In this document: in pieces, positions 361-40,965 of the stretch
How the letters are laid out: every line of letters starts with the position of its first letter
Numbering within the stretch: the first letter of the stretch is position 1
Source of the DNA: Rhizophagus irregularis
Lineage: Eukaryota
DNA length: 64,000 nucleotides
Assembly (NCBI RefSeq): GCF_026210795.1
Contig: NC_089430.1
Location: 4,712,001-4,776,000 of the forward strand
Reading direction: 5' to 3'
The notes under the pieces: generated by a model
Databases searched by the model: none
What the model was told of the DNA's origin: nothing
Seen by the model: the letters and a program-made list of their open reading frames with translations, nothing else
Position numbers and translations under genes: made by a program

Positions 361-888
361 TTATTTCGATATTCCAGAGTAACCAGAGCCTTCACCATCC
401 TGAGTGGTCATTGCACCATTAGGAAGACGTTTCCTAAGTTTATTGCTATGACAATTACGTTTATTATGGTGAATTTTTTTGGTGAGAATACCATTGTCAT
501 CACAGTCAATACTCATATTTGTAAACTTATGTCTGAAAGATTTGGTACCGCCACGACCATTTGGTTTTATATTCAATCCATCCGTGAGATCGAAAAGTGT
601 ATTTTTGCACTCATCAATAATTTTCATTCCGTAAGACGCGTTTGTATCATCGAAACCTTTGTTAAAGATTCCTGCGACTTCAGTGTGACCATTTTCGTCT
701 TGGGCAAAGAATACGTAACCTATAACCGGACCAGAATTGAAATCCGCGGCGGCGACAGAGCAACTGCATTGATGTCGTTTTTCAGGAGTATTAGATAACA
801 GTTCATTACTACTTGGAAAAGCTGACGAAATAGTAACGAAAGATAAAAGAATAAAAAAGGTCAAAAACGTAAAGTATTTCATTGTCAT
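361..888 (-). CDS. Small secreted Cys-containing protein SSP1 (175 aa), SOD-like fold lacking metal ligands
   Basis: Intronless ORF. Likely start is MTMKYF (ATG at 888 or 882), not the GTG at 1014. Hydrophobic signal peptide, pro-region ending EKR, CxC, close paralogy to 22772-23302 and 40450-40965. TATAAAAA at 999-1006 on the minus strand. Confidence 0.9.
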   Translation of the reverse strand: MTMKYFTFLTFFILLSFVTISSAFPSSNELLSNTPEKRHQCSCSVAAADFNSGPVIGYVFFAQDENGHTEVAGIFNKGFDDTNASYGMKIIDECKNTLFDLTDGLNIKPNGRGGTKSFRHKFTNMSIDCDDNGILTKKIHHNKRNCHSNKLRKRLPNGAMTTQDGEGSGYSGISK

Positions 889-998
889 ATTTTTTTTTAA
901 AAAAAAGGGAAAAATTAATTGTTTTCTCTTGATATTATTTCTGTTTATTATTCGAATATTGAATTCGATGAGGAATGGAAGAAGGGTAGAATCCACCC

Positions 999-1006
999 TT
1001 TTTATA
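999..1006 (-). promoter_or_regulatory. Putative TATA box of SSP1
   Basis: TATAAAAAG followed by a pyrimidine-rich tract about 110 bp upstream of the ATG. Equivalent motifs lie at 23430-23437 (-) and 40340-40347 (+) before the paralogs. Confidence 0.6.
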
Positions 1007-2365
1007 TTTCTCACAAGAAAGAATTTATATTAGTCGAATAATCAGTAATTTGATTAATTCTTTCTTTTGTTCTTGATCTAAAAATACATGTAAAAATTTA
1101 AAAATATAGAAATGTTACATAAATATGCTACATTGCATAAGTTATTGAAACTTTCTAATTTCTTCGATATTTTAATTAAAGTTCCTTGTCGGAGATTGTA
1201 TGAATCATAAAATTTTAACATTTTCGTCATTTGTAATAAGTTTATTAGTAAAATCTATATATAAATTTAACGCTAAAAAAAACAAAAATCATTATTGAAT
1301 ATGTTGTATGATTGTGTTTACATAAATCAGAAATGAGTTTATTCACGCACACATATTATTTTGCATGCATAAATAAAGTATAAAAAGTAAACAATTAAGG
1401 AAATAAACATCACCGAATGATAACATATAAATATTTTTATGGTACACGTGATAATTTCAGGAACGGAAAAACTTCGGAGGAAAAAAAAAGAGTTTTCATT
1501 GATTTGTTCAAAAGCCTAAAAGAAGTTAGATCCCATCTTATATATCTTATATATATAAGGAAAAAGAAAATGCAACGAATAAAAAAAGTAATGTTAAATG
1601 ATGCATAATGCACAGATTGACCCGAAAATGTCAATCATAATAATAAAATTGATTTTTATCTTTTTTATCTTAAAATGAACAATACATTATTACTTCAATT
1701 AATTTAATTAATAATTTTACTTGTACGTGTATCCTTAAAGTAGTAACACAATCAATTTCATTGATTCTTTATTTCCGGATTTGAGAAATTTTTGTGCCGT
1801 GAATATAAACATTTTTATCCATTATAATAAGTTTTACGATACACCGATAGTCACTACGTTACGTAAATTTCATTATATCATCAGTAGATAGAATTTATGA
1901 TTGCGATGAACAACGAAATTTGTTCGTTCATGAAAATACATGAGTGCATAATCATAAAATTCATATCACATTATTGATAATCACAAGAAAGAAATGATAA
2001 AAAAGATCTCTTGGCAAGAATTTTCGGGAAAAACTCCGAAGAATAAATAAAGTAACGTCACTAAACTTATTTTGTTTATTTTAATAAAAAAAATTTTTTT
2101 TTTTTTTTTATGCATTTTATGCATCAAACAAAATCTAACTCTTTTTAATTTTCTAAATCACTTTTTATTACTCTTCCGCTACCATAATAATTTCGAAAAA
2201 GGTTAAATTCTTTACGAAAATTTTGGGGACTGGTTGAAAAAAAAAAACTCCAACAATATAATAAAAAAACAAGTTAGTTGTATATACTCTAAAAATTTAT
2301 GTCTTGTTTTCTTTTCCCTTTTAAAAAAAAATTCGTCTCTCTAAAGTAAATGCTACTTTTTTAAG

Positions 2366-5300
2366 ATGAGGTTATATTATATTTTTCTTTTATCAATTAT
2401 TTTACTGGCGATATTACCAATAAAATCATCCATTATAATTGAAGAACCAATACCTGAAACCCCTTCAACTCCTCGCGTGTTAAATATAGATAATTATGAG
2501 GATGGCACGATAGTCGTTCGAATAGTTCGTTTAAACTATACAGCTCCTCCCAAATTTTGTCTGGAGGAAAACTTATCAATTCGCACAATTTATCCCAATG
2601 GAACTGTTAAAGGATTTGATCTTTCAGCAGATACATTAAATATACAACCTTTCAATTTTTGTCTTCTTTCAAAATTTAACCCTCTTAGATTTTACCCTGT
2701 AAAAAAAAATTTTTTGTTTTTAACTTACGCGGAAGCTGAAGATGTAAACAATCCTTTCACTTATAATGATTGGGGGATGATTATCGACTTAGATGGAGTA
2801 ATTAAAAGGTATATATGTAATATAAATTAACTTATTTATTTATATATTTGATATGAGCATAAATAATAAAGATTATTATACCGCTTCTTTATAGTAAATT
2901 TTGGTTAGGTACATCTTTTGTTAATACTACTACTAACGAATGGTTGCCCGCTCAAGATTCTATCAGACTAAATATCCATAGAGATAATGGATTTCTTCGT
3001 ACGGCACCCATAACTAGTACTAATTCTATGATCTTGCAACAATTCAAAGTGTAAATATTATATTTTAATTTACGAAAATTAATTTTAATAATTTTAATGT
3101 ATAATTTAATAAATATTTCTACTTCTTTTATAAGAAATGAAAATGGTGAAATCCAACTTCTTGCAAAATCTTATATGAATTTTACGGCTACTCCAGTCGA
3201 AACAGTTGCAACAATGGACGGAGGATACGCGATTATTTATCCTGGTATTACGCCGTCATCAACAATCCCTTTTGCTCCATATATATCGATCCATGGCTTT
3301 TTTTTACAAAATGGAAATCCAGAACCGCAAGGTCCATTTGTTCTTTATCAAACTCCAAATCCGGTATCAAAAATTATTTTACTTGATTGTGGTTTTACTA
3401 AAGTGGGATTTGGTCAAACTTGTATACTGGTTTTAAACGTTGCCCCAGCAACAGATCAAAATACGTTTATTAAAATGGATTTTCTTTCAACGGGAACTGT
3501 ATATAATATTACTATTTTTCAAAACCCTGCTGATCTTACTGATTTTGCCATTATGCCATTAGATTATGGAGGTTATCTCTTATTTAGTACAGCACCAAAT
3601 CTAGATAAAACTAAACTTAATCTTTATGGTTATATTTTGGATGACAATAGTAAACGTTATAATTGGAACATATCATATCCTACTATAACAAATTTTATTG
3701 GTGATATTTTAATTTTACCAAATAATACTCTTGTAATCCCTCAACCGGAATCTGGACAAACTTGGGGTTTGATCACCACTGATTTGTATAAGATCGAGGG
3801 TGCACGTGGTAAGGTGATACGAACGAGAAATAATATAATTACAGTATATCGTATAAAATATTTTTTAACTTGTATAAACTTTTAAAATGTTACTAGATCA
3901 TGGTTATGGAAATTTACATATCTTCAACACAACCCCGATCATTGGTGATACTATAGATCCATCTGGAATTGAATCCCTTACAATTAAATTTTATAGTAAA
4001 GTCAATTTATCACCTTATCGTAACGTTACGATTTTACAAGATGGTGGTATTATACGTCAAATTACTTCTGTAAGCAACGATAATGGAAATTTTGTAGAAG
4101 CTATTGATGACTATACTATTAAAATCAAAGTGATTGATAGTACTTTTAATCAGCCTAATACAAAGTATTATGTTTTAATTGATGATGGTTTTGTAGAGAG
4201 TAAAGATCTTCAAGAACCTATCATTGGAATACAAGATAATGCTTGGAATTTTAATACAAGTAAGTGTTTATCTTATTTAAAATGAAAGTGATGTTGCATA
4301 TACATAAAATAAAATTCCTTCTTTTCTTCATAATAGCTCAACAAGAAGTTACACAAAAAAGTATTTCAACTTTTTATGAAACAAAATTAAACGAATCTAG
4401 CATTAACGGAAAAGTTCGATTGACTGCAGAAGGAACCACTTATTTCAAAAGTTTCAAACATGATAAAATTAAACGTAAAGAATTTTTTGATAATTTAACA
4501 CAAGAATTGGCCAAAGCAGTCCCTGTTGGTCCGGAACGAATAACTACAAATGAAAGACATGAAATTGATACTTCCGTTTCACCCGAACAATACATTATAT
4601 CTATTAATATTAAAAGAGCCAAGAATTCAAATGACAGCAGATCTGTTAATTTGGTCGCTAGTGATTTAAATACTTTAATAAAATATAAACTTATTACTGT
4701 TATTGGTTCTGGAGTATATACAAATTATTTAGATGAAGAATATGGATATGAACCCATACGTAAGAATCCAATTTTTTTTCGGATAAAGGATTTCATCTCA
4801 AATAACTAAATAATATTTTTTTTTTTATAAAAATAGCCAGGTGGTTAGAAGAACATTTGAGTAGTATTCTTGGAACAATTGGATTGAACATTATATTATT
4901 GTTGTTTGCTTATTGGGTAAATATTCATTTAATATTAATATATTACAAAAAATAAAAAAAAATTTTTCTAACTTTTCCCCTTTTTTTAGAACAAAACATT
5001 TGCAATTTATACATGTGGCAACGCTATTGAAAAATTTGTGACGACAATTCTTTTTACTAGCATAGATGCGGGTAGCGTGGAAAATATCTTCACTACAAGG
5101 TAAAAAAAACCCCCTAAAAGTAAAATAAAAGAAGTATATTTATAGGTTTGTTTTTTTTCCAAATACTGATTTATTCTCTTCCCTTTCCCTCACTTTTTTT
5201 CTTCTAGTCTTTTTTTTGTGACATTTCCGTTTATCGTAAATTTGGGATTTGCATTTAAAGTTGTAATTGATGAACTTATGGGATATGATTTCCAAAAATT

Positions 5301-6626
5301 ATTAGAAAACATTAAAAAACTTAATGACTTGGTAAAAAAAGGCAACAATTCCACAGTAGAAGTTAACGATCGCAAAAAAAAATTTAAGAAACTCATAAGA
5401 GAAACTAGAAAAGAATTAATAAAAATTGAAGAAGAAGTTAGCGATCTTAAGAAAGATGTTAATGAAATATTAAAGAATCCTGTTGATGATGTAAAAACCA
5501 AGGAAAAATTGGTGAAAATTATCGATCATATAACAAAATTAGTAGACATTAGTGGACATTTAGATGAACTTTGGAAATTATTAGAATTTAATAAATTTGT
5601 TGCTATAAAATTAGAAGAAATTATCGTCGAAAAAGAATCGGAAGTAGATAACAAAGAATCAGAAGTAGATAACAAAGAATCAGAAGTAGATAACAAAGAA
5701 GTTTCAAAAGTTAATGAAGGAATTGTCAAAAAATTTGCAAATGAATTAATTAAAATTCATAATCTTATAATAAAGGAATTAAAAGAAGTTAAAGAACTTA
5801 ATGAGCAATTAAATAAAGCTGTAGACCTTATCGTGAATGAATCAAAAGAAGAACCTCCGATGAGCGAAAATGAACTCACGACGAGCGAAAATGAACCTAC
5901 GACGAGCAAAAATAAATTTATGAGCGAATTAAAAAAACTTGAGAGCTTTAAAAAGGAATTAGAGGAATTAGAAAAACTTGAAAGCTTTAAAAAAAAATTA
6001 GAAGAATTGAAAGAAAATAATGAAGAAAGTAACGGAAAGGATAGTATTCGGATAAAAATTAAGAAATTGTTTAGTAGGCTTCAAGAGAAATTCGAAGAGA
6101 TTATAAAAGCGATAGAAAAAAAGCGGCCGCCGAAGAAATATCGAAAACTTTCAAAATGGTTAAGAGATTATAAAGATAATCAAACAATTGTTATAATATT
6201 CACGATATTAGCAGGAGTCGATATTTCACATTTAGAATTGCTTGGATCACAGTTACAAATTCCAAATATTAATTATTTTGGTCTTGAAATTCGAAATATT
6301 AATTTCAATGCTGAATTATCTCAAGCAGCAGAAAATAGTTTATTTTGGGGTGATGTCACTAATATTTTCATTGAAGATGTTTCTACAATATTTATTCAGG
6401 TATGTAAATTATTTTTGTATTAATATTTTATTTTTTTATTAAACCAATCATTAAATTTTATTTTATTTTTCAATAGTGTTTTTATTTGTCTCAAGTTGTA
6501 TCATTTGGTTACACGCCCATATACACTATTTCAAAATCTATTATACATCTCATTAATAACGTTTATCACATACATCAATATAATAAATCCTCAGACACCA
6601 ACCCGGGCGAACCCAATAATTTGTAG
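2366..6626 (+). CDS. Multi-exon cell-surface multipass membrane protein R1 (about 1196 aa)
   Basis: Hand-spliced exons 2366-2808, 2895-3050, 3135-3808, 3897-4259, 4337-4759, 4837-4916, 4990-5099, 5208-6399, 6477-6626; all GT-AG, 3591 nt, in frame. Signal peptide; exon 4 resembles an SbsA/Big_5 Ig module (TTP..G...YYVLIDDGFV...WNFNT); hydrophobic segments in exons 6-9; K/E-rich coiled coil in exon 8. Confidence 0.88.
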
Positions 6627-15535: not shown

Positions 15536-15647
15536 TCCCCAACAAAAAAAGCTCGGGCACTTGATCCGGGATGTGGCTGTGTTTGAATATAAATAAATAT
15601 CACAGCCACATCCCGGACACGTGCCCGAGCTTTTTTTTTGTTGGGGA
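15536..15647. repeat. GC-rich near-perfect hairpin
   Basis: Arms of about 45 bp (TCCCCAACAAAAAAAGCTCGGGCAC..CCGGGATGTGGCTGTG and its reverse complement) around a 19-nt AT loop. Confidence 0.85.
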
Positions 15648-22771: not shown

Positions 22772-23302
22772 TTATTTAGATAATCCGGCGTAACCATGGC
22801 CTTCACCATTTTGTGTTGTCATGGCACCATTAGGACCACGCTTCTTGAATTTACTGCTATTACAGTGACGTTTACTATGGTGAAGAGTTTTGGTGAGAAT
22901 TCCATTGTCATCGCAGTCAATGGACATATTTGTGAACTTGTGTCTAAAAGATTTGGTACCGCCGCAGCCATCTACTTTTATATTCAATCCATCCGTGAGA
23001 TCGAAAAGTGTATTCTTACACTCATCAACAATTTTAAATCCGTAAGACGCTTTTGTATCTTCGAAGCCTTTTTTAAATATTCCTGCGACCTCTGTGTGAC
23101 CACTTTCGTCTTGTGAAAAAATCACAAGACCTTGAACTGGATCGGAGTTGAAATCGGCCATTGCATATGAACATTTGCATTGATTACGCTTTTGGAGCGT
23201 ACTAGATAATAATCCATTATCAGTTGTAAAAGCCGAAGCCGATGAAATAGTTGTGAGAGATAAAAGAATAAAGAGTTTCAAAGTTGCAAAAGAATAGTAC
23301 AT
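22772..23302 (-). CDS. Small secreted Cys-containing protein SSP2 (176 aa), paralog of SSP1
   Basis: Signal peptide, QKR, CxC, shared GHTEVAGIF, DECKNTLFDLTDGLNI and GGTKSFRHKF blocks; one extra Cys. Confidence 0.92.
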   Translation of the reverse strand: MYYSFATLKLFILLSLTTISSASAFTTDNGLLSSTLQKRNQCKCSYAMADFNSDPVQGLVIFSQDESGHTEVAGIFKKGFEDTKASYGFKIVDECKNTLFDLTDGLNIKVDGCGGTKSFRHKFTNMSIDCDDNGILTKTLHHSKRHCNSSKFKKRGPNGAMTTQNGEGHGYAGLSK

Positions 23303-24582
23303 ATTTGTTGTTTGTTATTTTTTAAAAATAAGGGGAAAAAGTAATTCTTTTTGGAAAATATTTTATTATTGATTCTTTGTTTCGAATATTGAATTGGTGA
23401 AGAGGGTGGAGAAGGGTGGAGCTCAATTCTTTTTATATTTTTTAACTTATTAGTCGAATAGTAAAATTCTTTCTTTTTGTTCTGATCTAAAAATACGTGT
23501 AAAAGTTTAAAAATAAAAAAAAATGTTGCATAAAATATATTGCATTATATAATTTCTTTAAACAAGTTCTTTGTCGGAAATTATGAAGCGGAAATTTTAC
23601 TTTTTCGTCATTTGCAATAAGTCTTTTTAGTAAATATGAAAGTTCTATATATAAATTTTTACGCCATAAAAAAAATGACATTGAATTTGAAATTAAGATT
23701 TTTTTTAAAACATTTCTAATATTAGAAGAATATTACCAAAAAAAAAATCATTTATTTGAATATGTTATGTTTAAAAATTACAATGAAGAAAATGAATTTA
23801 TTCATATACATGCATAAAAGTGAAAAATCAGCAATTAAGGAAATAAGCATAATCCAAATGTTAGATTTTTGTATGCATATATTTTTTGCATTAAAAGGTC
23901 GTGATTCCAGAAAAAAAAGGGTTCCATTAAGTCGTTAAAAGGCCCAAAAGAAGGTTAGATCCAATTATATAAGGAAGGAGATCAACAAATAAAGTAAATG
24001 ATGTTGTAGATTGAAAATTGTTGTTAACTGAAATAGTTCTAGTTAATAAAATAAGGTAATAAAAAATGATTATCTTTAAAATGACAATCCATTTTATTAT
24101 ACGTGCATCTTTTTCGGCGGATTTTAAACATTTTTATCCATTGTATATATACTGCATATTTTAAAATTTTAAAAAATATCATATATAATAGAACCTTTTA
24201 TATTTTTGGCTGGTGGGAACTTTCAAGAATATAAACTCCGGAGAATAAATAAGTAACGCCATTAAACTTATTTTGTTTATGAAAAGTATTTTTTTTTTCA
24301 AATTTCATTTTTTTTTATGCATTAAACAGGTCCGAATCTTTTAAATTTTAAATGAATGATAAAATTATTAAGAGATCTAAAAAAGGTTAAATTCTTTTAC
24401 GAAAAATTTCGGAATAATGGTTGAAAAAAACTCCAACAATATTAACTACATTGTTACGTTAACTACATTGTAAAATATCAAGTTAGTTGTGGTAATATCT
24501 TTTTAATCAATGATCCAAAATGTCTTGTTCAATAATTTTAACCAATATGGTAATATATATTTGAAAAATTTCAGTGATCTAT

Positions 24583-24696
24583 CCCTATAAAAAAAAAAAA
24601 TTCTGAAAAAAACTCCGATAAATGATAATTTTTCTAGTTTTCATTTCGAAGTAACTCGGGTACGTGATCATTTTTCTGAAAAAATTTTTTATAGGG
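24583..24696. mobile_element. 114-bp CCCTATAAAA-type MITE in the R2 promoter
   Basis: TIR CCCTATAAAAAAA...TTTTTTATAGGG with TAT on both flanks. Same termini as 51647-51941. Confidence 0.7.
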
Positions 24697-24790
24697 TATT
24701 TTTTAAACTGGGGTTCATTTCTTTTTCATTGATTTTTTTTTTTAAAAAAAAAAATTATTCTCTAAAAAATTAATTTCAACTTTTTCAAAG

Positions 24791-27700
24791 ATGAAGAAGT
24801 TGAAGTTATCTTTTATTTTTCTTTTATCAATTATTTTACTATCGATATTACCTGTAAAATCTTCCATTACATTTGTAGAAGAAACACCTGAAACCCCTTC
24901 AACTCCTCGCGTGTTAAATTCAAATTTTTATGATGATGGCACGATAGTCGTTCGAATAGTTCGTGTAAACTACACAGCTCCTCCAAAAATTTGTGTGGAG
25001 GAATTCTTATCACTTCGTATAATTTATCCCGATAAAACTATTAAGAAATTGGATCTTTCAGCAGTTAAATTAAATATACAACCTTTCAACTTTTGTCTTC
25101 TTCCAACCGCTAATCCTATTAGATTTTACCCTGTAAAAAAAAATTTTTTGCTTATAACTTACGCGGAAGCTGAAGATGTAAACAGTCCTTACACTTATAA
25201 TGATTGGGGAATGATCATCGACTTAGATGGATCATTTAAAAGGTATATATGTAAATATAAATTAACCTTTTTATATATTTGATATGAGCATAAATAATAA
25301 AGATTATTTCGCTTCTTTTATAGTAAAATTTGGTTAGGTACATCCTACGTTAATACTACTACTAACGAATGGTTGCCCGCCCAAGATTCTGTCACATTAA
25401 ATATCCATAGAGACAATGGATTTCTTCGTACCGCGCCCGTAACTGGTACTAATTCTATGACCTTGAAACAATTCAAAGTGTAAGTATTAAATTTTAATTT
25501 ACGAAAATTAATTTTAATGTATAATTTAATTTATATATATTTCTTCTTTTATAAGAAATGAAATTGGTGAAGTTCAACTTCTTGCAGAAACTTCTATGAA
25601 TTTTACGGCTACTCCAATCGAAACAGTTGCAACAATGGACGGAGGATACGCGATTATTTATCCTAATTATGAATTTACAACAACAACAACAACAACAATG
25701 CCCCTTGCTCCATATATGTCGATCCATGGTTTTTTTTTACAAAACGGAAGTCCAGAAAAGCAAGGTCCATTTGTTCTTTATCAAACTCCAAATCCGGTAT
25801 CAAAAATTATTTTACTTGATTGTGATTTTACTAAAGTGGGATTTGGTCAAACTTGTATACTGGTTTTAAACATTGCACCAGTAATAGATCGAAATACGTT
25901 TATTAAAATTGATTTCCTTTCAACTGGAACTGTATATAATATTACTATGTTTCAAAACCCTGCTGATCTTATTGATTTTACTGTTGAGTCATTACAATAT
26001 GGTGGCTATCTCTTATATAGTAGAGCACCATTTCCAAATGATATGACTAAACTTAATCTTTATGGTTATATTTTGGATGACCATGGTAATCGTTATGATT
26101 GGAATATATCATACCCTACTACAACAAATTTTAATGGTGATGTTTTAGTTTTACCAAATAATACTATCGCAATTCCTCAACCGGAATTTCAACAAACTTG
26201 GGGTTTGCTCACCACTGACTTGTACAAGATCAAGGGTGCACAAGGTAAGGTGATACGAACGAGAAATAATATAATTACAGTATATCGTATAAAATTTTTT
26301 TAACTTGTATAAACTTTTAAAATGTTTACTAGATCATGGTTATGGAAATTTACATATCTTCAACACAACTCCGAACATTGGTGAAATTATAAATCCATCT
26401 AAAATTGAATTCCTTACAATTCAATTTTATGATAAAGTTGATTTATCATCTAATCATAACATTACAATTTTACAAGATGGTGGTATTATAAGACAAATTA
26501 CTTCTGTAAGCCATAATAATGGAGATTTTGTAAAAAATATTGATGGTTATACTATTCAAATCAAAGTGATTAATAGTACTTTTAATCAGCCTAATACAAT
26601 GTATTATATTATAATGGATGATGGTTTTGTAAAGAGTAAAGATCTTCAAGAGCCTATCATTGGCATACAAGATAATTCTTGGAAGTTTTTTACAAGTAAG
26701 TGTTTTATCTTATTTAAAATGAAAATAATATTAAATATATATAAAATAAAATTCTTTTTTTTTCATAATAGCTAAAGAAGGTGTTACGCAAAACAGTGGT
26801 TTCTCAAATTATTATAAAAAGAAAGTAAACGCATCTGCCATCAACGGAAAAGTTCTATTAAACGTAGACGGGACAGATTACTTCAGAAGGATTAAAGACG
26901 ATAAAATTAAAGTTAAAGAATTTTTTGACAATTTAACACGAGAACTGGCCGAAGCAATCCCTGTTGATTCGGAACGAATATATACAAATTACAAACATGA
27001 AATTGATACTTCCGCTTCACCTGAACAATATATTCTATCTATTAATATTGGAAAAGCCAAGAATGAAACCGAAAGATCTGTTGATTCTATCTCTGATAAT
27101 TTAAATACTTTAATAAGGAATAAACTTATTACTGTTATTGGTACTGGAGAGTATACAAATTATTTAGATGAAAGATATGGATATGTACCCATACGTAAGA
27201 ATCCAATTTTTTTTTCGGATAAAGGATTTCATCTCAAATAACTAAATAATAATTTTTTTTTTTTGTAAAAATAGCCAGGTGGATACAAGAACATTTGGGT
27301 AGTCTTCTTGGAACAATTGGATTGAACATCATATTATTGTCACTTGCTTATTGGGTAAATAATAACATTTAATATTAATATATTATTAAGATTATTATTT
27401 AATTTTTTTTTTAATTGAATATTGACAAAAAATGAAAAAATCTAACTTTTTTCTTTTGTTTTTAGTGTAACTCAATTGCAATTTTTTCATGTGGCAACGC
27501 TGTTGAAAAATTTGTGACGACAATCCTTTTTACTAGTAATGATGCAGATAGCGTGGAAAAAATTTTTCCTGCAAGGTAAAAAAAAAATTCCCCTAAAAAA
27601 ATGTATAGACTTATTTTAATCAAATACTGATTTATTCTCTTCCCTTTCCCTCACTAGTCTTTTTTTCGTGACATTCCCGTTTATCGTAAATTTAGGTTTT

Positions 27701-29310
27701 GCATTTAAAGTTGTAATTGATGAACTTATGAGACATGACTTACGAAAATTATTAAAAACCATTAAAAGACTTAAAGATGACTTAGTAAAAGAAGGCAACA
27801 ACTCTACAGTAGGAGGAGGCAACAATTCTACAGTAGGAGGAAGCAACAATTCTACAGTAGGAGGAAGCAACAATTCTACAGTAGGAGGAAGCAACAATTA
27901 TACAGTAATAGATGTCAACAATTCTACAGTAGTAAATGTCAACGATTCCATAATAGAAGTAGACAACAATAATACAGTAAAAGATGGCAATTTTAGTGTA
28001 GAAGATGGATCAAAGAAAGACGAAGTTGCCAAGCGCGAAGAAAAAGTTAAGAAATTTACGAAAGCGTTAAGAGAAACTAGAAAAGAATTAAAAAAAATTA
28101 ATGAAGAGTTAACAGAAGTTAGCAATCTCTCGAAAGGATTAAAAGAAGTCAATAAAAGTATAAAAAAATTAAAGGATTCAAATCCAAATTATGTAAAAGA
28201 CATCATGGAAAAATCAAACACAGTAAAAGACATCGTGGAAAAATTGAGAGGGATCAACAATCTTAGAGAAAGATTAATGCAAGTTGAAGATTTTACAGAA
28301 GAAATAATAGAAATTTGTAGAAATTTAAATGTACTTGGCAAATTATCAAAAGAATTGAAAAAAATTGATGAATTGGAAGTTATCCTTTCCAGAGAAGAAT
28401 CGGGAGAAGGAGGTACCATTAAGGAACATGTGGAAGAATTAAAAGAAGTTGTACACCTAAAAGGGCGATTAAATAAAGCTTTAAACCTTATGAATGAGTT
28501 AAAAAAAGAACTCCCGACGAGCGAAAAAGAATCTACGACGATCGATGAACTTACGAAGAGCAGAGATGAACTTACGAAAAGTAAAAAAGAACTTATAAGC
28601 GAATTAGCAAAACTTGAGAGTTTTCAAAAAGAATTAGAAAAATTAGAAAAACTTGAAAGCTATAAAGAAGAATTAGAAGAAGAATCGAATGAAGGAAATA
28701 ATGAAGAAGATAATAGAAGAGATAGTATATGGGAAGGAGTTAAGAAAAGGTTTAGTAGACTTATAAGTTTTCATGAGAAAATCGAAGAGGAGGCTAAAAA
28801 AGTGATAGAAAAAGATCAGCCGCCGAAGAAATATCGAAAATTTTCAAAATGGTTAAGAGATTATAAAGATAGTCAAACAATTGTAATAATATTCACGATA
28901 TTAGCAGGAGTTGATATTTCACATTTAGAATTGCTTGGATCAAAGTTACGAATTAAAATTCCAAGTATTGAATATTTTGATCTACATACTCGAAATATTG
29001 ACGTTAATTTTAATGCTAAATTATCTCATGCAGCAAAACATAGTTTATTTTTGGGTGATGTCACTAATATTTTCATTGAAGATATTTCTACAATATTTAT
29101 TCAGGTGTGTAATTTATTTTTGTATTAATTTTATTAATTTTTTATTTTTTTATTAAACCAATCATTAAAATGTTATTTTATTTGTTTAAGTGTTTTTATT
29201 TAGGTCAAGTCGTATCATTTGGGTACACACCTATTTATACTATTACAAAATCTATTATTCATCTCCTTAATAACTTATTTCACATATATACATATAAACG
29301 TAATCCTTGA
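24791..29310 (+). CDS. Multi-exon cell-surface multipass membrane protein R2 (about 1279 aa)
   Basis: Exons 24791-25242, 25324-25479, 25556-26244, 26333-26695, 26772-27194, 27275-27354, 27466-27575, 27658-29104, 29191-29310; 3840 nt, in frame. Intron positions and phases match R1. Confidence 0.88.
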
Positions 29311-29489
29311 ACATCAACCCGGGTAAACCCTTAATGGAAAGGCTATTGTTCGATCAAATACAACTTATTATTTGAATAAATATTTTATATTTTATTTAAT
29401 TTTCTAATATATAAATGCTATACATGATCTGCCTAAAAAAAAACTTTGTTTCTTTACGTATTGTGTCGTTTGCTAATTAATATTCGCAT

Positions 29490-31090: not shown

Positions 31091-31649
31091 GCTACTTTGA
31101 TCAGAACCAGAAATTGCTTCGAGATATTACGTAAAAATCTATTTTTCAATCAAACGGCTCTAAATTAGGCCCATTTAGAAAGTCAGGAATCACCAGCTTC
31201 CAGGATTTATTTTGAAATATTCGGACATATGTATTATAGATATTATATAATACTTGGCATGAGAAATATTGATAATACAGTTAATTGAGGTATATATAAA
31301 ACTTTTTTTCTTCCGGGGGATTGGAAAATTTTGTACAATCGTAATAATAATAATATCTTATTTTAAAATAATACAATATATATTCTTGACATATTTATCC
31401 GTGAGATACTTAACAGTTAACAGTTAACGTTAGAAAAGATAGAATGTGAGAATCGATTAATATATATAGAAATCGATTGTCACATGTTAACAGTTGACAA
31501 GTCGCCTTTAACCATTTACGTTTTATTGGTCAAATGATAATCGGTCATGTGCTATAAGATTCAAAATTACCACTTTCACACTTTCACATTATCTGTTATA
31601 TTGTTAACCCCAAAAAATTTTTACGTTACGTTATATCTCATTAAGACAA

Positions 31650-33235
31650 AAATATTATGTTTCTCAGTCAAATTATTTCGACTGGCGCATCATAGCCAGA
31701 CCAGACGTTCTTTCACGAAAAGGCAGGAATGGACGAACCTTGAATGGTACAAATTCTTAATAGAAAATATTCGTACAAACAAAGAAACCTTCGTCTTAAC
31801 TTGGACTTCAGCAGCCCTCCCATTATTAACATTAATGTTACACGTCCCAAAATTCCTCTGGTCTCGTTTAATTCAAGCAAAGACTCAAGAACCTGGTTGA
31901 TTTCTGGTCCCCATGAACTAACGACATAGTTTATGGAAGAATTTTAGAAATCACATAGACCGCATTGTCCACCAATGCTTTTTATGGAACTCTAACCAAT
32001 CAATCTTAGGAGATAGCCATAATTGTGTAATGCATCGCCCATACTACGTGGGAGGGCATAGGAGGATTTAAGACCTAAATGTGTTTATCTGGGTCAAATT
32101 ATAAAATTTTCACAACAATTTATATCCATTATACTCCCAAACAAAGAAATATCCGTATTATTAACAAACATTCGCACCATACCTTCCGTTGTACTGCCTA
32201 CAGCGATTTTCTAGTTATAATTCATTTACCAATAGAACGGCCTTTACCTCTTCCTAAGGTTTCAATCAACTGTACAGTTATCTGGTGTAATTATAGATCA
32301 GTTAATTAATATTTCTATTGCGATTAATAGTTCATCAAATATCTCAATTTATACGGATGGCTCAATTACAGATCCCGATTCGGTTTTATCAGAGTTAGGT
32401 TTAGGTTGGATCATAGATCTCCCTACCAACATCACGCTGAAATTCAACGCTTCAACCGAACGCTGGAGTTCCTCCATCAAAGCGGAGGCTTTAGCAACAT
32501 GTACCGCTTTAATTACGTGCCCAAAAGATAGTTTAGTTAACATCTTTATAGGCTCAACAATGTTGCAAATAATCCGTTGATACCATAGCTATTTTAAAAA
32601 TCAACAATTATCTCATCAATCTGGAAAGCCATAGAACTGATAATCCTTTACCAAAGTCAAAGCTAATTCTGATGACGTCTTAAATGATGAAGCCGACAAA
32701 CTAGCAAAGCTGGGTGCGACTTCACCGTATATTATCATCATCAATAAAGACATCGACACATTTATCTCAACAATGAATATTCAATGGGCAACTCAATTGT
32801 GATCGATAGGAATATATGGAAAACAATGAGGTCTATTTTTAACAACAACTTACTTTATTAAAAATGCGTTCATAAACAACCTCATCGACTGGCCATGGAC
32901 TAAACCATGGATTAATCACAACCAAACAGATCGCCCAACGTCACTTTTAAAAATTAGCGAAACTTATGTTATAAACTGAAATCGTTCACACAATCGCTGC
33001 CAACTGGAGATCTTAATACATATTACCCTCAGATTATTTAACACTCTCACATGTTTTCACCGCAATCAAGAATTAGGTTCTAGCCGCCATTTATGGACGT
33101 GTCATCATAACGTAAGAAATTTTCAATAAACATAAACAAATCCTTATCCAAACTCTTGAACAACATTGTGATAAATTGTTGATTTTACTCAAAGTTTCTA
33201 TTGAACGCAATCCTATATTCAAATGGATATCAAAC
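31650..33235 (+). mobile_element. Degenerate non-LTR retrotransposon 3' part (RNase H plus Cys/His knuckle remnant)
   Basis: From 32341 the + frame reads ISIYTDGS...LGLGW...SSIKAEALATCTALITCP..VNIF, then TKVKANSDDVLNDEADKLAKLG (RNase HI motifs), then SLPTGDL and HLWTC. Many frameshifts. Confidence 0.8.
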
Positions 33236-33249
33236 CTCGACGGGCCTAC

Positions 33250-34120
33250 CATCAAGAATCTATCATTGGTATACAAGATACTGCTTGGAATTTTTTAAGT
33301 AAGTGCTAATGTTACGTATATGCGTAGAAGAAAATTCTTTTTTTTTTCCATAATAGTTCAATTGCTCAATTAACCAAAATTTCGAAATTAATTAAAATAG
33401 AAAATACAGATCCTACTCACGAGAAAAGAATGCGAATAATTAATGGCGCCAATTAAAAAGTTAGTTCGAAAAGTATATCAAATATGTACAAACGCATCTA
33501 GCATTGAAAAGTTTGGTCGACTTCAGAGTTACTTCAAATGTTTTAAAGATGATGTATGTATGTATGATAATTTACACAAGAACCGGCTAAAGCAATCCAC
33601 TTGCTAATTTGATGGTCGCTGGTGATTTGAAAGAAATCAACGTTAACGGAGATGAATCACAAGAAGTCATCATTAACAAAGAAGAATTGAAAGAAGTTAT
33701 CGTTAACAAGAAAGAATTAAAAGAAGTTAGCATATTTAGAGAAGAAATTGGTAGAGAGTTTGAAAGTTAATGAATCCACGGAATAATTAAAAGATGAGAG
33801 AAAGTAAGAGATGGAGTAATATATGGGAAGGAGTTAGATATGGATTAGTAAAATTATACATATAGGAGGAATGTGGAAAATGCTGAAAAATTGGTAAAAT
33901 GGTTAAGAGATTATAAAGGTAATCAGTATTTTTAAATTAATTTTTTTTACCTTTTATTAAGCCAAACATTAAAATTCATTTAATTATTTTTTTGATAGAA
34001 TTTAGTTTGATTCAAGTTGTATCATCTCGTTACATCATATACACTATTTCGAAATCTATTATATAATACGATCATATATATAGAATAATCTTTCAAATTT
34101 TTTATTGTTCGATCAATAAT
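33250..34120 (+). pseudogene. Heavily deleted fifth copy (R5) of the membrane-protein gene
   Basis: Collinear fragments matching the exon 4 end (CAAGAATCTATCATTGGTATACAAGAT..GCTTGGAAT), exon 5, exon 8 (AAATGGTTAAGAGATTATAAAG), exon 9 (CAAGTTGTATCA..TACACTATTTCGAAATCTATT) and the 3' UTR (TTATTGTTCGATCAATA). Confidence 0.8.
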
Positions 34121-34956
34121 TTAATTATTATTTGAATAAAATATTTCTATATACTGTACGATCTGTACGTATATAATGATGAATTTTCTAATACAATTAG
34201 ACGGTCAGGTATCGTAATTGTGATTAGATCATATACTGTAACAGCTATCACGTGCAACCGCAGAGGCAAGTTTGACGTGCGTTAACTATATGTAATAAGA
34301 TGCCATTGTAATTTACGTGAAAAACCCGCATCGAAAGATAATAAGATGTTAAAACTAATTGCATAAATTTGAAATTATTATTATTATTCAAATTAGTCAT
34401 ATTAAATATAAATGTACGTAACATGAAATTTAAATTTTTGTATTAAAGATTCTAAGTGGCAAATTGTCGAATGTCGATCACTATATTGTAATACGAAGGT
34501 AATATAAACTTCAAATAACTTCATTGAATTCTGATCGATCGATCACATTTGATCGATGATGGCGTATAATTAAAATAATTTGTTGTAAATAATTTGACAT
34601 TGTTTTCCTCTTTTGGATCAAAAAAAAAGAATTAACTATACCGCGTCGATAACACGCATAGTATTATACATTATTGTATTTGAAACGTTATTACTAATCT
34701 TTAGCATCTAAGAAATAAAATTTTATATTTATTCACGTAACTAGACAAGAGTAATGAAGTGAGGATATTATAGCACTCATCAATAATTTTGAAATTCGTA
34801 CTGTCACTTTGATCACAAATTAGCAGTAAGTTAAAAAGAGTTATTACAATAAATTACTTTATTAAACTCATTATGATAACAATTATACATGATAAATAAT
34901 GAAAAAAAAATCGGTAAAGTACCAATAATATTTGTGATTTAGTAAATATTAACTAA

Positions 34957-37900
34957 TTAATTATTATCTACTGATTTCGTACAAGGAAATATTCTACCAA
35001 TGATGATTCTAAATGATCCAGCCCAACTATTTCCCTGTTCCGACATATATTTATATATACAACGTAGATTATTTATGAGATGTAAAAAGGAATATAATAT
35101 AATGTATATAGGCGTGTAACCAGCTGATACAACTCGGCTCAAATAAAAGCTCTATTGATTAAAAAAAAATATTAAAATTTAATTAATGAAAAATATTAAT
35201 GTAAAAAGAAATTTTCATACCTGAATAAATATTTCGGCAAGATCATTTATGAAAATATTAGTGATATTTCCAAAAAATATTTTACGTTTTGCTGCATAAG
35301 ATAAATTAGCATTAAAATTAAGATCTCGAATTCGTGATGGCACCTTTGATTTAAGCCAATTAAGCCTACAAGTTTGAATTTGTAACATCGATCCAAGTAA
35401 TTCTAAATGTAAAATATTAACTCCTGCTAGTATCGTGAATATTACTACAATTATTTGATTATCTTTATTATCTTTTAACCATTTTGAAAATTTTCGATAT
35501 TGCTTTATCGGCTGATCCCCCTTAATTTTTTTCAACCCATTTTCTATTATATCTTTAATCTTATAAATCTGTTCTTTACTTTCTTCCCAAACATTACTAC
35601 AATACCGATGGTTTTTCTTCTGTTCTTCTCGATTTTCTACGTAATCTTCATTATTTTGCGATAATTTAACTTGAATTGATTCCATACAACTGATAATATC
35701 TTTCAATTCTTCTTTAAGTTTGCGTTTGTTAGATATTTTTTCCTCATTTTTTATTCCTAATTCTTTTATATATTTGTTAGTTTTTATAAAATCAAGTTCT
35801 TTAACTTTTTTTAATATTTCTATAAGTTCGCTAAATCTTTTGAATTCTTTCATAAGAGCGTTAAATTCTTCGATATTAATTTCTTTTAATTTTTCTTTTA
35901 GTTTAATACGTTCTAGTTCTATAAGTTTGATTAAATCTTCTGTAAATTTGATGACTTCTTTTAATTCTTTTGTGAAATTTTCAACTTGATCTATTTTTTC
36001 TAAGAGTTTCTTAACTTGTTGCAAGTTTTTTATAATAGATTTTACTTCCTTCAATTTAATTTCTTCTTGACTCTCTAATTTACTTATAAGATCATTAGCA
36101 TCTTTTAATTTTTTCGTAATTCCTTTAAATTCATTTAAATCATCTTTAACTTTTTTTAGCTCAACTTTAGCTTTTTTTAATACCATTGTAATTTCGTTAT
36201 TAACTATTTGTAACTTTTCTTTGTGATCGCTGTGATTATTACCTTTTTCTAATAGATCATCGTAACTGTCTAATATGTCTAATAATTCTTTAACTTTTTT
36301 TAATAATTTTGCAAAGTCATTTGAATCAAATCTCGTGAGCTCATTTAATACAATAACAAATGCAAAACATAAATTTACGATAAATGGAAATGTCACGAAG
36401 AAAAGACTTTGAGATGGAAAAGGAAAAGAAAAAAAAAATTATTGTAAGTAATTTTTTTTTCGTTTTAACGTTAATTTCACTATATTTAAAACTTGTTTTA
36501 CCTTGTAGTAAATATATTTTCAACGGCTCCTGCATCTCTTCTAATAAAAAGAATAGTCATCGTAAATTTTGCAATAGAGATACCACATTCAATAATTGCA
36601 AATGAATTAAACTGAAAATAAAATATCATTTGTCAGCAATTAGTTTTTACTTCAATTAAAAATTACAGTAATTATATTTTTTTTTTATATACCATAAAAG
36701 CAATTATGATCAATAATATTGTATATATAACTAAACCAATAAGGCTCATCAAATATTTATCTATCCAACTGGCTGTTTATACAAAAACAAATAATATTAA
36801 ATTTTGTTATATGAGATAAGATTCTTTCATACGAAAAAAAAAAATGGATTCTTACGTAAGATTTTATATCCATATTCATGATCCAAATAATTTGAATATT
36901 CTCCAGAACCAATAACAGTTATAAGTTTATTCTTTATTAAAGTATCTAAATCTTCAGCGATTGAATTATCTGACTTTTCATCTTTATTCTTAGCTTTTTT
37001 TATATTAATAGCCAAAATGTATTGTTCAGGTGAAACTGAAGTATCAATTTCATATCTTTCATTTGTTGTTATTCGTTCTGAACCAACAGGGACCGCTTTG
37101 GCTAATTCTGATGTTAAATTATCAAAAAATTCTTTACGTTTAAGTTTATCATGTTTAAAACTTTTAAAATAAGTGGTTCCGTCTGAAGTCAATCGAACTT
37201 TTCCGTTAATACTGGAGTCAATCATATCTTTAATTTTCTCTTTCAAATTGGATTTACTTGAAACACTTTCGTTTTCTGTAAAAGAAAATTTTCAAGAAAA
37301 AATGGTCATATTCGTAAATATAATTTTTTTTTTTCGTTTTATTTTTTTTCGTTCAAAATAAGAGAAATTTTATATAGAACTTACTTGTTATAAAACTCCA
37401 ACCACTATTTTGTATACCAATGATAGGTTCTTGGTAATTTCTATTTTTTACAAAACCATTGTCAATTAAAACATAATACTTTGCATTAGGCTGATTAAAA
37501 GTACTATCAATCACTGTGATTTCAATGGTAAAGTCATCGATATATCTTACAAATTCTCCATTATTATTGCTTATAGAAGTGATTTGACGTATAATACCAT
37601 TCCCAGTACCATCATCTTGTAAAATTGTAACATTATAATTCGGTGATAAATCAACTTGATCATAATATTTAATCGTAAATATTTTGGTTTCAGATGGGTC
37701 GATAATTGCGTTAACTTCTGGAATTGTAGCATTGATTTGTAAATTTTCAAAACCATTATCTAGTAATATATAAGTAAAGTTAAAAAATAAAGTTAATAAT
37801 TATTTAGGAATTAAAATTTTTTTTTTTTCGTTTGAATCATTTTACCTCGTGCTCCCTCGATTCTACTTAAATCAATGGAGATTAAAGACCAACTTTGACC

Positions 37901-39253
37901 AACTTCCGGTTGAGGAATTATAAGAGTATTGTTAGGTAAAATTGTAATATCAGCTTCACTATTCGTCAAGGTGGGATATGGAAGACCCCAACTATATTGT
38001 ATACCATTGGTATCCAAAATAAAGCCATAAAGATTAAGTCTAGTTGCATCATTTACAATTGGTTGTGTATAATATAAGAAATAACCTCCATATCGTAGTG
38101 ATTTAATATTATAGTTAACGCCGCCTGGACTTTGAAAAGCTTTAACATCGTATGCAGTCCCTGATGAAAGAAAATCAACTTTAACAAATGTGTTTTGACC
38201 TTGTGCAGTGTTTAAAGTTAAAATACAAGTTTGTCCGACTCCTATGTAGGCAAAATCACAATTAATTAAAGTAACTTCTAAAATTGGAGCTCGAGTTTGA
38301 TAAAGAATAACTGGCTCTTGTATAATATTTTTTCCGTATTCTAAGAATATTCCATATAATTTCATTTGCGGAGAAAAGGGGATAGTTGACATCGTAATAT
38401 TAGGATAAATAATCGCATATCCTCCATTTGTCGTTGCAACTGTTCCAATTGGATGACCCGTAGGATATTCGATGATTGTTTCTCCGAGAAGTTGTATTGC
38501 ATTATTTTCATCACTAAAGTGAAATATAAAGATTGAATCAATATTTTATAATTAAATTAATATTTTATTGTCTTAATAAATTACATTTTGTATTGCTGTA
38601 AAGCAAACCCAGTAGAATTTGTTATAGGTGTAGTACGAAGAAATCCATCATCACGATGAACGTTTAGTGTAATAGTAGAATCTTGATCGGGCGACCATTC
38701 GTTAGTATTAGGATTAACAAATGATGATCCCAGTTTAGATTTACTATGAAAAAGAAATTATTATTTAGGCGTGTAGTTTTATTTTATTTAAAAAATGAAA
38801 AAGTCAAATTTATTTTATTTACTTGTGGATAACTCCATCTAAGTCAACAATTAATCCCCAATCATCATAAGAATATGGATTATTTACATCTGCAGCTACC
38901 ACAAAAGTTACGAACAAAAGATTTCTTTTTATTGGGTAAAATTTAATTTTTGAAAGAATACAAAAATTAAAAGGTTGAATGTCCAATGAAATATCAAATT
39001 CTTTAATAGTTCCATCTGGATAAATCGTACGAATTGAAAAGGATTCCTCAAAACAAGTTCTGGGAGGAGTTGTATAATTTACATCATGAGCTATTCGAAT
39101 AACTATTGTACCATCATCGAAATTTTTTATATTCATCACGTTAGGTGTTTTAATTTGCTTTTCTTCATATGTAATAATTGATGATTTTACTGGTAATATT
39201 ACCAATAAAATTGATAAAAAAAGTATAAGATTTAACCTCATCGTAAATTTCAT
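34957..39253 (-). CDS. Multi-exon cell-surface multipass membrane protein R3
   Basis: Same exon layout as R1 (ORF pieces 38819-39253, 37811-38392, 36827-37246, 35215-36396, 34957-35142, plus a hand-read intact Ig exon at about 37386-37760). Start at 39253 or 39241. Confidence 0.85.
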
Positions 39254-40449
39254 ATGAGTTAAAATTTTTTAAACAAAGGAAAAAAAATTTTTTTTTTAAA
39301 GATAAATTATTATTATTGAAATTTTTTTAGGGGAGCGTCATCAAATTTATTATGTGACTTTTTTTGGATCGTTGAATAGAAATTTTCTTTTTTATTTTTA
39401 TATATTTTTTTTATTTTATTTTTATCTTTATTTCTTTTTTTATACAAATGTTACTGAAATTTTCTTATCGGTAGTTAAAAAAAATTATTATAAAATACAA
39501 TCAATTTTGATGGAAAAATAAATATATAATTTCTTACATTATGAATAGTAGATAAAAATAAAAATATACATAATCTATAATCTAACTTTTTTTATTATTC
39601 GTTACGTTACAATGAATGTAATACGGATTCAGCCGAGATTTTACAAGGGTAGGAAAAAAAAATTTTTTTTCATTTTTTTTTTATGCATAAAAATGTAGTA
39701 ACATTCAATGCAATACTTTTTTTTATTGCATTACATATACATTTGATTATCTCTTTACCGAATATACTAAACAAATAAGAACATCCATTCAAAATTTTAG
39801 AAATTTCTAAATTTATAAAACGGGTAAACTTTTTGGCTGTCCATTAACAAGTTTGTCGTACAAAAATTTTTATCCGTTACATGCATAAAAGAAGCGTTAA
39901 TATTGTTCGATTATTTGTTTGAATACAAAGTTTATTATTACCATAATAGTTATTTAACATTTTTAGATTCTTTGAATCATTTTTTTTTTTAGTTTATCAT
40001 AACGGAGTCAAATAATTTTATCCGAAATTTCTTTCGCCTTTTTTGTTATTATTTTGAACGGACCGTCCGGATTACCAAATTAAGTTGATTCAATTGTACG
40101 ACTATTTTTGGTGTAGTGCAAAGTTGTATTTTAATTTTCTCCAATGATAAGAAACTTATTACGGAAGACAAAAGTGCTGAGTTCACAGTCCGCGAATTTG
40201 ATAATAAAATTTAAAAGGTTCATTGACCTTAATCACACTCGTACGCATGCATATTTACATATTTTTTTTTTTTTTTTTAGTAATTAGATGAAATCAAAGA
40301 AATATTTATTAATATAAATTCCTCCTCCTTTCGAAAAAATATATAAAGGGTGAATTCCACTCTCTCCAATTCCTCACGATAATAAAAGTAATAATAAAAT
40401 ACTTTATCACGTCTTTTTTTCCTTTTAAATTTTTAAATCAAAAAAAAAA

Positions 40450-40965
40450 ATGAAATATCATACATTATTATTTTTAGTTCTCTTATACCTTATTGCCGTT
40501 TCGTCAGCTGCTCCAAATGGTAGTAAATTATTACCCAGAGCATTTGAAAAACGAAATCAATGTAGTTGCAGATTCGTGGTCGCAGATTTCAATCATGGTT
40601 CAAGTAGGGGTATCGTGACCTTTGCTCAAGACGAAAGAGGTGATACCGAAGTCGCAGGAATTTTCAGCAAGGGTTTCGATGATGAGCACGCAAGTTATGG
40701 ACTTAAAATTGTTGACGAATGCCGTAATGTCCTCTTTGATCTTACGGATGGGTTAAATATAACACCAGACGGTTCTGGTGGTACCAAATCTTTTAGGCAT
40801 AAATTTAGTGAATTTAGTGTTGACTGCGACAGCAATGGTATTCTTACCAAAAAAATTCATAATTCCAAACGTACTTGTCATAGCAATAAAATTAGGAAAC
40901 GTCTTCCTAATGAAGCGATGACTACTCAGAATGGTCAAGGCATGGATTATACAGGGATCTTTTAA
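40450..40965 (+). CDS. Small secreted Cys-containing protein SSP3 (171 aa)
   Basis: Signal peptide, EKR, CxC, and the same five Cys and three KR sites as SSP1 and SSP2. Confidence 0.92.
   Translation: MKYHTLLFLVLLYLIAVSSAAPNGSKLLPRAFEKRNQCSCRFVVADFNHGSSRGIVTFAQDERGDTEVAGIFSKGFDDEHASYGLKIVDECRNVLFDLTDGLNITPDGSGGTKSFRHKFSEFSVDCDSNGILTKKIHNSKRTCHSNKIRKRLPNEAMTTQNGQGMDYTGIF

What the first reader, a model, noticed from the sequence alone, without database searches (positions are those of the whole stretch)
361..40965. Repeated head-to-head pair of secreted SOD-fold protein and large surface membrane protein: candidate linked ligand/receptor or toxin/immunity system
Seen: the same divergent arrangement occurs three times (SSP1/R1 361-6626, SSP2/R2 22772-29310, R3/SSP3 34957-40965) with 1.2-1.5 kb between start codons. 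It persists in the third pair, which is inverted and so diverged that little intergenic similarity remains. Both partners have signal peptides and intact frames. Established: tight linkage of a small Cys-rich secreted protein with a polymorphic surface protein characterises recognition loci such as Brassica SCR/SRK, Papaver PrsS/PrpS and fungal pheromone/receptor loci. Inference: co-regulated cognate pairs acting in self/non-self recognition (e.g. hyphal anastomosis), signalling or antagonism. I know of no description of this pair.
Basis: partly seen in the sequence, partly recalled or inferred. Interest (0 to 1): 0.88.

Follow-up and report, generated by a model that had tools for sequence, protein, structure and literature searches.

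The report
Paired decoy-SOD and surface receptor genes
In the root-symbiotic fungus Rhizophagus, a gene for a small, likely secreted protein predicted to fold like superoxide dismutase without its metal site sits back to back with a gene for a large receptor-like membrane protein; the pair recurs on several contigs and in three species, and is likely a signal with its own receptor, though binding is untested.

Summary
Observation confirmed. Three intact divergent pairs (start codons 1,484, 1,489 and 1,197 bp apart) lie in the window, plus a fourth receptor-like gene (R4) without its own partner. The proteins match Rhizophagus irregularis records at 99-100%. The small protein is predicted to be a Cu/Zn-SOD barrel (Z 12.2) without the copper histidines, with conserved dibasic (Kex2-type) sites. 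The large one has a signal-like N-terminus, a predicted beta-propeller, Ig and alpha/beta domains, and a polytopic membrane module with a long coiled-coil insert. Linkage goes beyond this locus: 6 of 7 close SSP groups in R. irregularis sit next to an R gene by position or consecutive accession, one pair on another chromosome-scale contig; the same holds in R. diaphanus and R. clarus, and probably on one scaffold in Glomus cerebriforme. The S-locus or toxin/immunity reading is weak: alleles are 90-100% identical between isolates, orphans of both genes exist, and partners do not share one history. Published counts show cluster genes transcribed in hyphae outside roots and hardly inside. Most likely a co-regulated ligand/receptor cassette (0.45); interaction untested.

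The parts
361..882 (-). SSP1, 173 aa, one exon (alternative start at 888): signal-like N-terminus, pro-peptide ending KR35-36, predicted SOD-type barrel, loop flanked by KR141-142 and KR151-152
883..2365 (.). divergent intergenic region 1, likely a shared promoter; patchy similarity to region 2
   Evidence: promoter function is inference
2366..6626 (+). R1, 1,196 aa, 9 exons: predicted beta-propeller (about 18-423), Ig domain (about 425-545), alpha/beta domain (about 565-685), membrane module with coiled-coil insert (about 773-1062)
22772..23302 (-). SSP2, 176 aa; a published 'secreted protein' RiSP342 is the antisense frame over it
23303..24790 (.). divergent intergenic region 2
24791..29310 (+). 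R2, 1,279 aa, 9 exons; insert carries a 24-bp tandem repeat
33205..34063 (+). decayed fragments of a further R gene
34761..34798 (-). possible 38-bp remnant of a further SSP gene (weak, E 0.003 within the window)
34957..39253 (-). R3, 1,207 aa, 9 exons
39254..40449 (.). divergent intergenic region 3; only the part next to the SSP start resembles region 1
40450..40965 (+). SSP3, 171 aa
42636..46792 (-). R4, 1,172 aa, 9 exons; tail-to-tail with SSP3, no divergent SSP of its own

Best explanation
A two-gene cassette, copied as a unit in Rhizophagus, likely co-expresses from a shared promoter a secreted SOD-fold protein predicted to lack its metal site and a receptor-like membrane protein that likely binds it at the surface of hyphae outside the root. 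Shown: the divergent arrangement and intact frames in the window, neighbouring accessions at other loci and species, purifying selection on the SSP, and transcription of one SSP and one R of the cluster. Predicted: the SOD barrel, the beta-propeller/Ig ectodomain and the membrane module. Inferred: secretion; Kex2-type cutting after the pro-peptide and on both sides of a disordered loop, which would give a two-chain mature protein in the manner of peptide-hormone precursors; binding to the propeller; and a signal passed through the membrane module and its cytoplasmic coiled coil. Recognition is probably family-wide rather than strictly one-to-one, with R4-type genes as extra receptors sharing a neighbour's ligand.
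For: 6 of 7 close SSP groups of R. irregularis lie next to an R gene, one pair on a different chromosome-scale contig. Neighbouring locus tags in R. diaphanus (755030/755031, 676524/676525, 765463/765464) and an SSP/R array in R. clarus. A G. cerebriforme SSP (about 39% identical) and R (about 44%) are both on a contig of 108,968 bp. Homology between units 1 and 2 ends close to the outer gene ends. SSP dN/dS 0.22 and 0.25, intervals below 0.45 (0.32 and 0.38 with transition weighting). Parallel divergence, Mantel r 0.53-0.85. Loop KR conserved in 20 of 21 close and about 40 of 55 wider homologues; loop pLDDT under 50. Beta-propeller ectodomain with 9-15 N-glycosylation sequons. SSP2 and a neighbouring non-cognate R are both transcribed in germlings and extraradical hyphae and near zero in Medicago roots; Spearman 0.68 over 8 conditions.
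Against: Co-duplication of neighbours alone also gives linkage and parallel trees. Partners do not share one history: dS SSP1/SSP2 0.65 (0.41-1.02) against R1/R2 ectodomain 0.16 (0.12-0.21), and R. clarus SSPs 96% identical go with R ectodomains 74% identical. Orphans: one SSP group, one R group and one R. clarus SSP have no partner in the rows I saw; R4 has none of its own. A distant R in loci L009-L011 has an ion-channel gene, not an SSP, head-to-head. Three Funneliformis SSP-like records checked against listed R records were on other contigs or had no listed R. Orientation outside the window was not seen, and the expression comparison is between non-cognate genes with few reads.
Confidence: 0.45

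Rival explanations
1. The two genes are kept together because they share a promoter and serve one process on the hyphal surface (for example sensing and countering soil microbes, or wall adhesion), but the products act in parallel and do not bind each other.
For: Fits the linkage, the fixed 1.2-1.5 kb spacing and the similar expression, and explains the mismatch in rates: R1/R2 ectodomain dN/dS 0.88 (0.65-1.21) against SSP 0.22, as for a receptor following outside ligands. Most of the wide R family (ESM Atlas clusters of 81, 169 and 232 members) probably has no SSP.
Against: Does not by itself explain why a non-catalytic protein with precursor-like processing sites stays beside a propeller receptor back to Glomus.
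Confidence: 0.27
2. The pairing is a by-product: one ancestral chance neighbourhood was copied by block duplication, and the genes are functionally unrelated.
For: All close pairs descend from one SSP clade, so they are not independent events. Both wider families are large and appear unlinked in the few distant cases seen. Orphans survive with intact frames.
Against: The pair survives relocation, inversion, loss of intergenic similarity and speciation while flanks decay to repeats; same-contig location in G. cerebriforme at about 40% identity.
Confidence: 0.15
3. The pairs are an allorecognition locus like a plant S-locus, with matched ligand and receptor haplotypes deciding hyphal fusion between isolates.
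For: Linked secreted and surface proteins, extraradical expression, pair C seen in only some R. irregularis records, mosaic R records.
Against: Alleles are near-identical: paired R ectodomain segments 90-100%, SSPs 95-99% including R. diaphanus; there is no sign of deep allelic lineages.
Confidence: 0.07
4. The SSP is a Kex2-processed antifungal or antibacterial toxin and R is its immunity protein.
For: Dibasic sites flanking an internal loop resemble killer-toxin precursors (recalled; motif shown); divergent gene pair.
Against: No toxin fold among the top matches; an SSP group without an R neighbour is intact in 7 of 7 records listed, four of them full length; low allelic diversity; a 1,200-aa receptor-like protein is an unusual immunity factor.
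Confidence: 0.06

Closest known systems
Cu/Zn and Cu-only superoxide dismutases (Candida albicans SOD5, PDB 4n3t; loop-deleted human SOD1, 6flh/4bd4)
   Same: Same barrel in the predicted model: Z 12.2, rmsd 2.3 over 108 residues to SOD5; Z 11.8 to the loop-deleted SOD1; weak sequence match to strands 1-3.
   Different: No HxH copper motif, no Pfam Sod_Cu hit, 13-23% identity, extra loop flanked by KR sites. Not a dismutase by its sequence.
R. irregularis secreted structural sub-community C18b, 'similar to superoxide dismutases' (bioRxiv 10.1101/2022.12.16.520752)
   Same: Same species and fold; these SSPs may belong to it.
   Different: The passages and section I read name the group only, with no function or linkage; its datasets were not readable, so membership is unchecked.
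Linked ligand/receptor loci: Brassica SCR/SRK, Papaver PrsS/PrpS, fungal pheromone/receptor loci (recalled)
   Same: Small secreted protein gene tightly linked to a surface protein gene.
   Different: Unrelated proteins; several paralogous pairs per genome instead of many alleles at one locus; R has no kinase or GPCR domain by Pfam.
XK-related membrane proteins (PF09815)
   Same: A short-loop homologue from Funneliformis mosseae matches profile positions 4-171 of 337 at E 1.7e-4; a feature hit to a cluster with 40% XK-related members scored 0.76.
   Different: Below the Pfam cut-off (21.1 against 24.8 bits), 1 of 40 members, half the profile only, no match to solved XKR structures by sequence. 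A lead only.
Glomeromycotina 'SbsA Ig-like domain-containing' membrane proteins (unnamed family)
   Same: R belongs to this family: homologues in Rhizophagus, Glomus, Funneliformis, Gigaspora, Dentiscutata and Scutellospora; membrane module shared with large Mucoromycota clusters at TM-score 0.93-0.96.
   Different: The SSP-linked clade carries a coiled-coil insert of about 270-370 aa that is short in distant members.

Membership tests
Cu/Zn-SOD family | SOD Greek-key barrel | tested here: met
   (predicted model)
Cu/Zn-SOD family | copper-binding histidines (HxH on strand 4, His on strand 7) | tested here: not met
   positions 87, 89 and 161 are K/R/Q/I, V/I and Q/I/K in 21 of 21 close rows; 4 of 55 wider rows have any HxH. 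Mapping to SOD1 numbering is by strand order and recalled
Cu/Zn-SOD family | dismutase activity | not testable with these tools
   needs an assay
S-locus-type allorecognition pair | tight linkage of secreted and surface protein genes | tested here: met
S-locus-type allorecognition pair | many deeply divergent alleles at one locus | tested here: not met
   paired R ectodomain segments 90-100%, SSP 95-99% identical among the records examined
S-locus-type allorecognition pair | haplotype-specific binding and a compatibility phenotype | not testable with these tools
   needs binding assays and crosses
Linked ligand/receptor cassette | linkage conserved at independent loci and species | tested here: met
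   by accession order, orientation unseen outside the window
Linked ligand/receptor cassette | co-expression of cognate partners | tested here: inconclusive
   only a non-cognate SSP and R of the cluster had counts
Linked ligand/receptor cassette | physical interaction | not tested
   no complex model or assay was obtained
Toxin/immunity pair | toxin never intact without its immunity gene | tested here: inconclusive
   one SSP group has no adjacent R in the rows seen, but unlinked R genes exist in the same genomes
XK-related proteins | PF09815 above cut-off over the full domain | tested here: not met
   best 21.1 bits against 24.8, positions 4-171 of 337
XK-related proteins | XKR membrane fold | tested here: inconclusive
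   fold searches of the whole R model were filled by the propeller; the membrane module was not folded alone

The most novel reading that the evidence does not exclude
Arbuscular mycorrhizal fungi have turned a superoxide dismutase into a protease-matured protein hormone and encode it back to back with its receptor, a beta-propeller surface protein whose membrane part is half of an XK-type module; the duplicated cassettes form a signalling code for hypha-to-hypha communication in the extraradical network.
Probability: 0.2. Interest if true: 0.87.

Novelty: new variant of a known kind. Interest (0 to 1): 0.6.

Why it matters
How the hyphae of arbuscular mycorrhizal fungi signal to or recognise one another is an open question, and I know of no defined protein ligand/receptor pair in this group (own knowledge). 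The cassette names concrete candidates: a small protein that can be made in yeast, and an ectodomain that can be tested for binding it. It also gives a first functional hint for two large unannotated Glomeromycotina families, and shows that a published effector candidate (RiSP342) is the antisense frame of a real gene. If the pairing proves a by-product, what remains is a description of two new protein architectures.

Tried and rejected
Complex prediction of SSP with the R ectodomain was not available: no verdict. No sequencing runs could be listed, so no reads were laid; splicing and cognate co-expression were not checked with reads. No whole genome is held, so linkage elsewhere rests on accession order and contig lengths. 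Scans for SSP loci found none: metagenomes 0 of 140 pattern matches, prokaryote genomes 0 of 107, viral contigs 0 of 141. The R scan gave 27 loci of 76 matches; none held an SSP by HMM, but only L009-L011 have more than 2 kb upstream of a full-length match, and L026 and L027 are weak hits that I take as unrelated. A third homologue search with the 55-row SSP alignment added little. Pfam gave nothing above cut-off for either family. PDB sequence searches for R found nothing meaningful; XKR was not listed in the fold searches. The label 'Cyanovirin-N domain' on R. clarus SSP records had no support. An active dismutase was rejected. P0036, P0057 and P0054 first looked like divergent alleles but are another paralogue or mosaics. 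The careful SSP tree did not finish; the quick tree was used. Earlier-findings look-ups were empty. Ten paper searches listed no description of the pair; the library lacks most subscription papers.
Full report
1. Observation. Self-comparison of the window shows four copies of a 3-kb block and three of a 0.5-kb block. Gene models from splice-aware search and correction give three single-exon SSP genes (171-176 aa) and four 9-exon R genes (1,172-1,279 aa), all without internal stops. Three SSP/R pairs are divergent, with start codons 1,484, 1,489 and 1,197 bp apart; the third is inverted. R4 ends 1.7 kb from the end of SSP3, tail-to-tail, and no SSP was found between 46.8 kb and the window's end. 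SSP paralogues are 60-73% identical; R paralogues 46-51% over the whole length, R1/R2 74% over the first 800 residues. The proteins match Rhizophagus irregularis records at 99-100%. The spacers hold repeats and decayed fragments, including pieces of a further R.

2. The small protein. Pfam has no match above cut-off for the three window SSPs or for 55 of 55 wider members. The AlphaFold2 model (mean pLDDT 74, pTM 0.64; core 85-96) matches Cu/Zn-SOD folds: Z 12.2, rmsd 2.3 over 108 residues to Candida SOD5, with the 15 top rows all SODs or SOD-fold proteins and the next row at Z 5.9; Foldseek's best match is a SOD1 lacking loops IV and VII. The strand that carries HxH in SODs (recalled) reads YG(F/L/M/V)(K/R/Q/I)I(V/I)(D/N) in 21 of 21 close rows, so the copper site is absent. 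Five cysteines are conserved. Dibasic sites follow the pro-peptide and flank a low-confidence loop (KR141, KR151); 47 of 55 wider members have KR/RR in the first 75 residues and 46 of 55 after residue 110. Kex2-type maturation is inferred, not shown. The family is wide: 93 representatives at E 0.001 or better; the 26 close rows form one supported branch in the quick tree.

3. The large protein. The model of a public protein identical to R1 (mean pLDDT 74.5, pTM 0.60) has a beta-propeller at about 18-423 (Z up to 19.3 against many unrelated propellers, so only the fold is indicated), an Ig domain (weak Big_5 match), an alpha/beta domain, three membrane helices, a poorly modelled coiled-coil insert of about 270-370 aa and further membrane helices. 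A profile of six homologous membrane modules matches all four window R proteins across the insert. Homologues: 59 of 7,998 scored candidates, from Rhizophagus to Gigaspora. An XK-related match is a lead only (nothing).

4. Linkage elsewhere. I looked up 10 of 20 close SSP clusters, 10 of 59 R clusters, and 9 of 93 SSP representatives plus one more R. Consecutive accessions place an SSP next to an R for: a fourth pair of this cluster (OCT59_012378/012379; CAB4378268/269; CAB4477138/139); pairs 1-3 in other isolates (PKY25881/25880, CAB4378279/280, PKK70114/70115); a pair on another chromosome-scale contig, 4.9 Mb against 6.1 Mb (OCT59_008454/008455; also GBC28004/005, PKC07633/634, CAB4488737/736, PKY49506/505); and pair C (PKY51380/381, CAB4420382/383). 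That is 6 of 7 close SSP groups in R. irregularis; the seventh (GLOIN_2v1883405 cluster) had no adjacent R in these rows. Of 9 close R groups, 6 are these partners, R4 and an R4-like group flank an SSP or share its small contig, and one (OCT59_021786) showed no SSP. R. diaphanus has 755030/755031, 676524/676525 and 765463/765464; the last may be the tail-to-tail SSP3/R4 arrangement. R. clarus has SSP 01, R 03, R 05, SSP 06, R 07, SSP 08 on one scaffold and one SSP (06570006) with no R seen. In G. cerebriforme an SSP-like and an R-like record are both on a contig of 108,968 bp; adjacency is not shown. Against: two Funneliformis SSP-like records are on other contigs than the listed R records of those species, F. 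geosporum has no R listed, a distant R. irregularis SSP paralogue lies on a contig length with no listed R, and the distant R in L009-L011 faces an ion-channel gene. Accession order does not give orientation.

5. Evolution. Distances of SSP and R ectodomain correlate over 15 pairs (r 0.85), 14 without Glomus (0.72), 6 R. irregularis paralogues (0.74) and 10 non-orthologous pairs (0.53), permutation p 0.004 or less. The R. clarus pairings, two R. diaphanus pairings and the Glomus pairing were my assignments from gene order, orthology or contig, and co-duplication alone predicts such correlation. SSPs are under purifying selection (dN/dS 0.22 and 0.25). R ectodomains are less constrained (0.5; 0.88 for R1/R2), and with transition weighting 0.71-0.75 and 1.17, intervals for R1/R2 spanning 1. 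R1/R2 ectodomain dS (0.16) is far below SSP1/SSP2 dS (0.65), with two introns 95-98% identical, which suggests gene conversion between receptors after the pairs arose. Mosaic R records (P0054, P0055, P0057) may be recombinants or assembly chimeras. Among isolates the paired genes vary little: R ectodomain segments 90-100%, SSPs 95-99%; the unpaired R group varies more (78-99%).

6. Expression. In Table S1 of PMC5293756 (supplement rows seen), RiSP342 is identical over the 106 codons compared to the antisense frame across SSP2. Its counts are up 17.7-fold in extraradical mycelium (54-72 reads per replicate) and 23.9-fold in Lunularia (2-8 reads), and are zero in six Medicago and Brachypodium replicates, where only 2-4% of reads were fungal. 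RiSP830, a partial model of the fourth-pair R, shows a similar pattern (Spearman 0.68 over 8 conditions, two-sided p 0.06). I assigned table blocks to conditions from the fold-change columns; the word 'stranded' does not occur in the paper, so the strand read is unknown. These two genes are not cognate partners.

7. Mechanism. Most likely (0.45) a co-regulated ligand/receptor cassette acting on hyphae outside the root, with loose rather than one-to-one specificity. Rivals: co-regulated but non-binding partners (0.27), duplication by-product (0.15), allorecognition locus (0.07), toxin/immunity (0.06). The interaction is untested.

8. Comparison and novelty. It works like linked ligand/receptor loci (recalled: SCR/SRK, PrsS/PrpS, pheromone/receptor) but fails their allelic-diversity feature and shares no protein family with them. 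The SSP is not a SOD by its metal site. bioRxiv 10.1101/2022.12.16.520752 (passages and section 5 seen) notes a SOD-like structural sub-community in the secretome; its datasets were closed and could show whether these SSPs are included. Ten searches (listings and abstract starts only) showed no account of the pair. A supplement search of PMC12941956 was empty; for PMC11035146 and PMC9883914 I saw only supplement lists, and their large tables could hold expression data. Verdict: a real, conserved and apparently undescribed gene pair of two unannotated families; new variant of a known kind; interest 0.6.

Noticed in passing
window 57634-61636 (-): Multi-exon ion-channel gene (Ion_trans E 1.5e-13), TRP-like by recall, about 11 kb upstream of R4 on the same strand. 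A gene of the same Pfam family lies head-to-head with a distant R in L009-L011.
   Followed up: partly
L009 1229-5503 (-) and 6039-8312 (+); also L010, L011: A distant R whose whole ectodomain is in one open frame (no introns) faces an ion-channel gene across about 0.6 kb; no SSP within 6 kb upstream.
   Followed up: partly
window 22796-23116 (+): The antisense frame over SSP2 is listed as secreted protein RiSP342 in PMC5293756, likely a mis-annotation.
   Followed up: yes
window 55260-56008: 18-bp tandem repeat, about 40 copies, open in several frames.
   Followed up: no
window 16904-17472, 51643-51945, 15536-15647: Long near-palindromes; the first holds 2.2 copies of a 182-bp unit; probably non-autonomous transposon remnants.
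   Followed up: no
window 7627-8998: Inverted pair of ATCCCA-type microsatellite arrays about 1 kb apart.
   Followed up: no
window 32236-32580 (+): Short frame that looks like an RNase H remnant of a retroelement (by eye).
   Followed up: no
protein P0151: An R record of the second locus ends in a kinase-like tail (named 'Protein kinase domain-containing'); may be a gene-model fusion with a neighbour.
   Followed up: no
protein P0249: A 1,109-aa protein with an SSP-like N-terminal domain followed by what looks like an aspartic protease.
   Followed up: no
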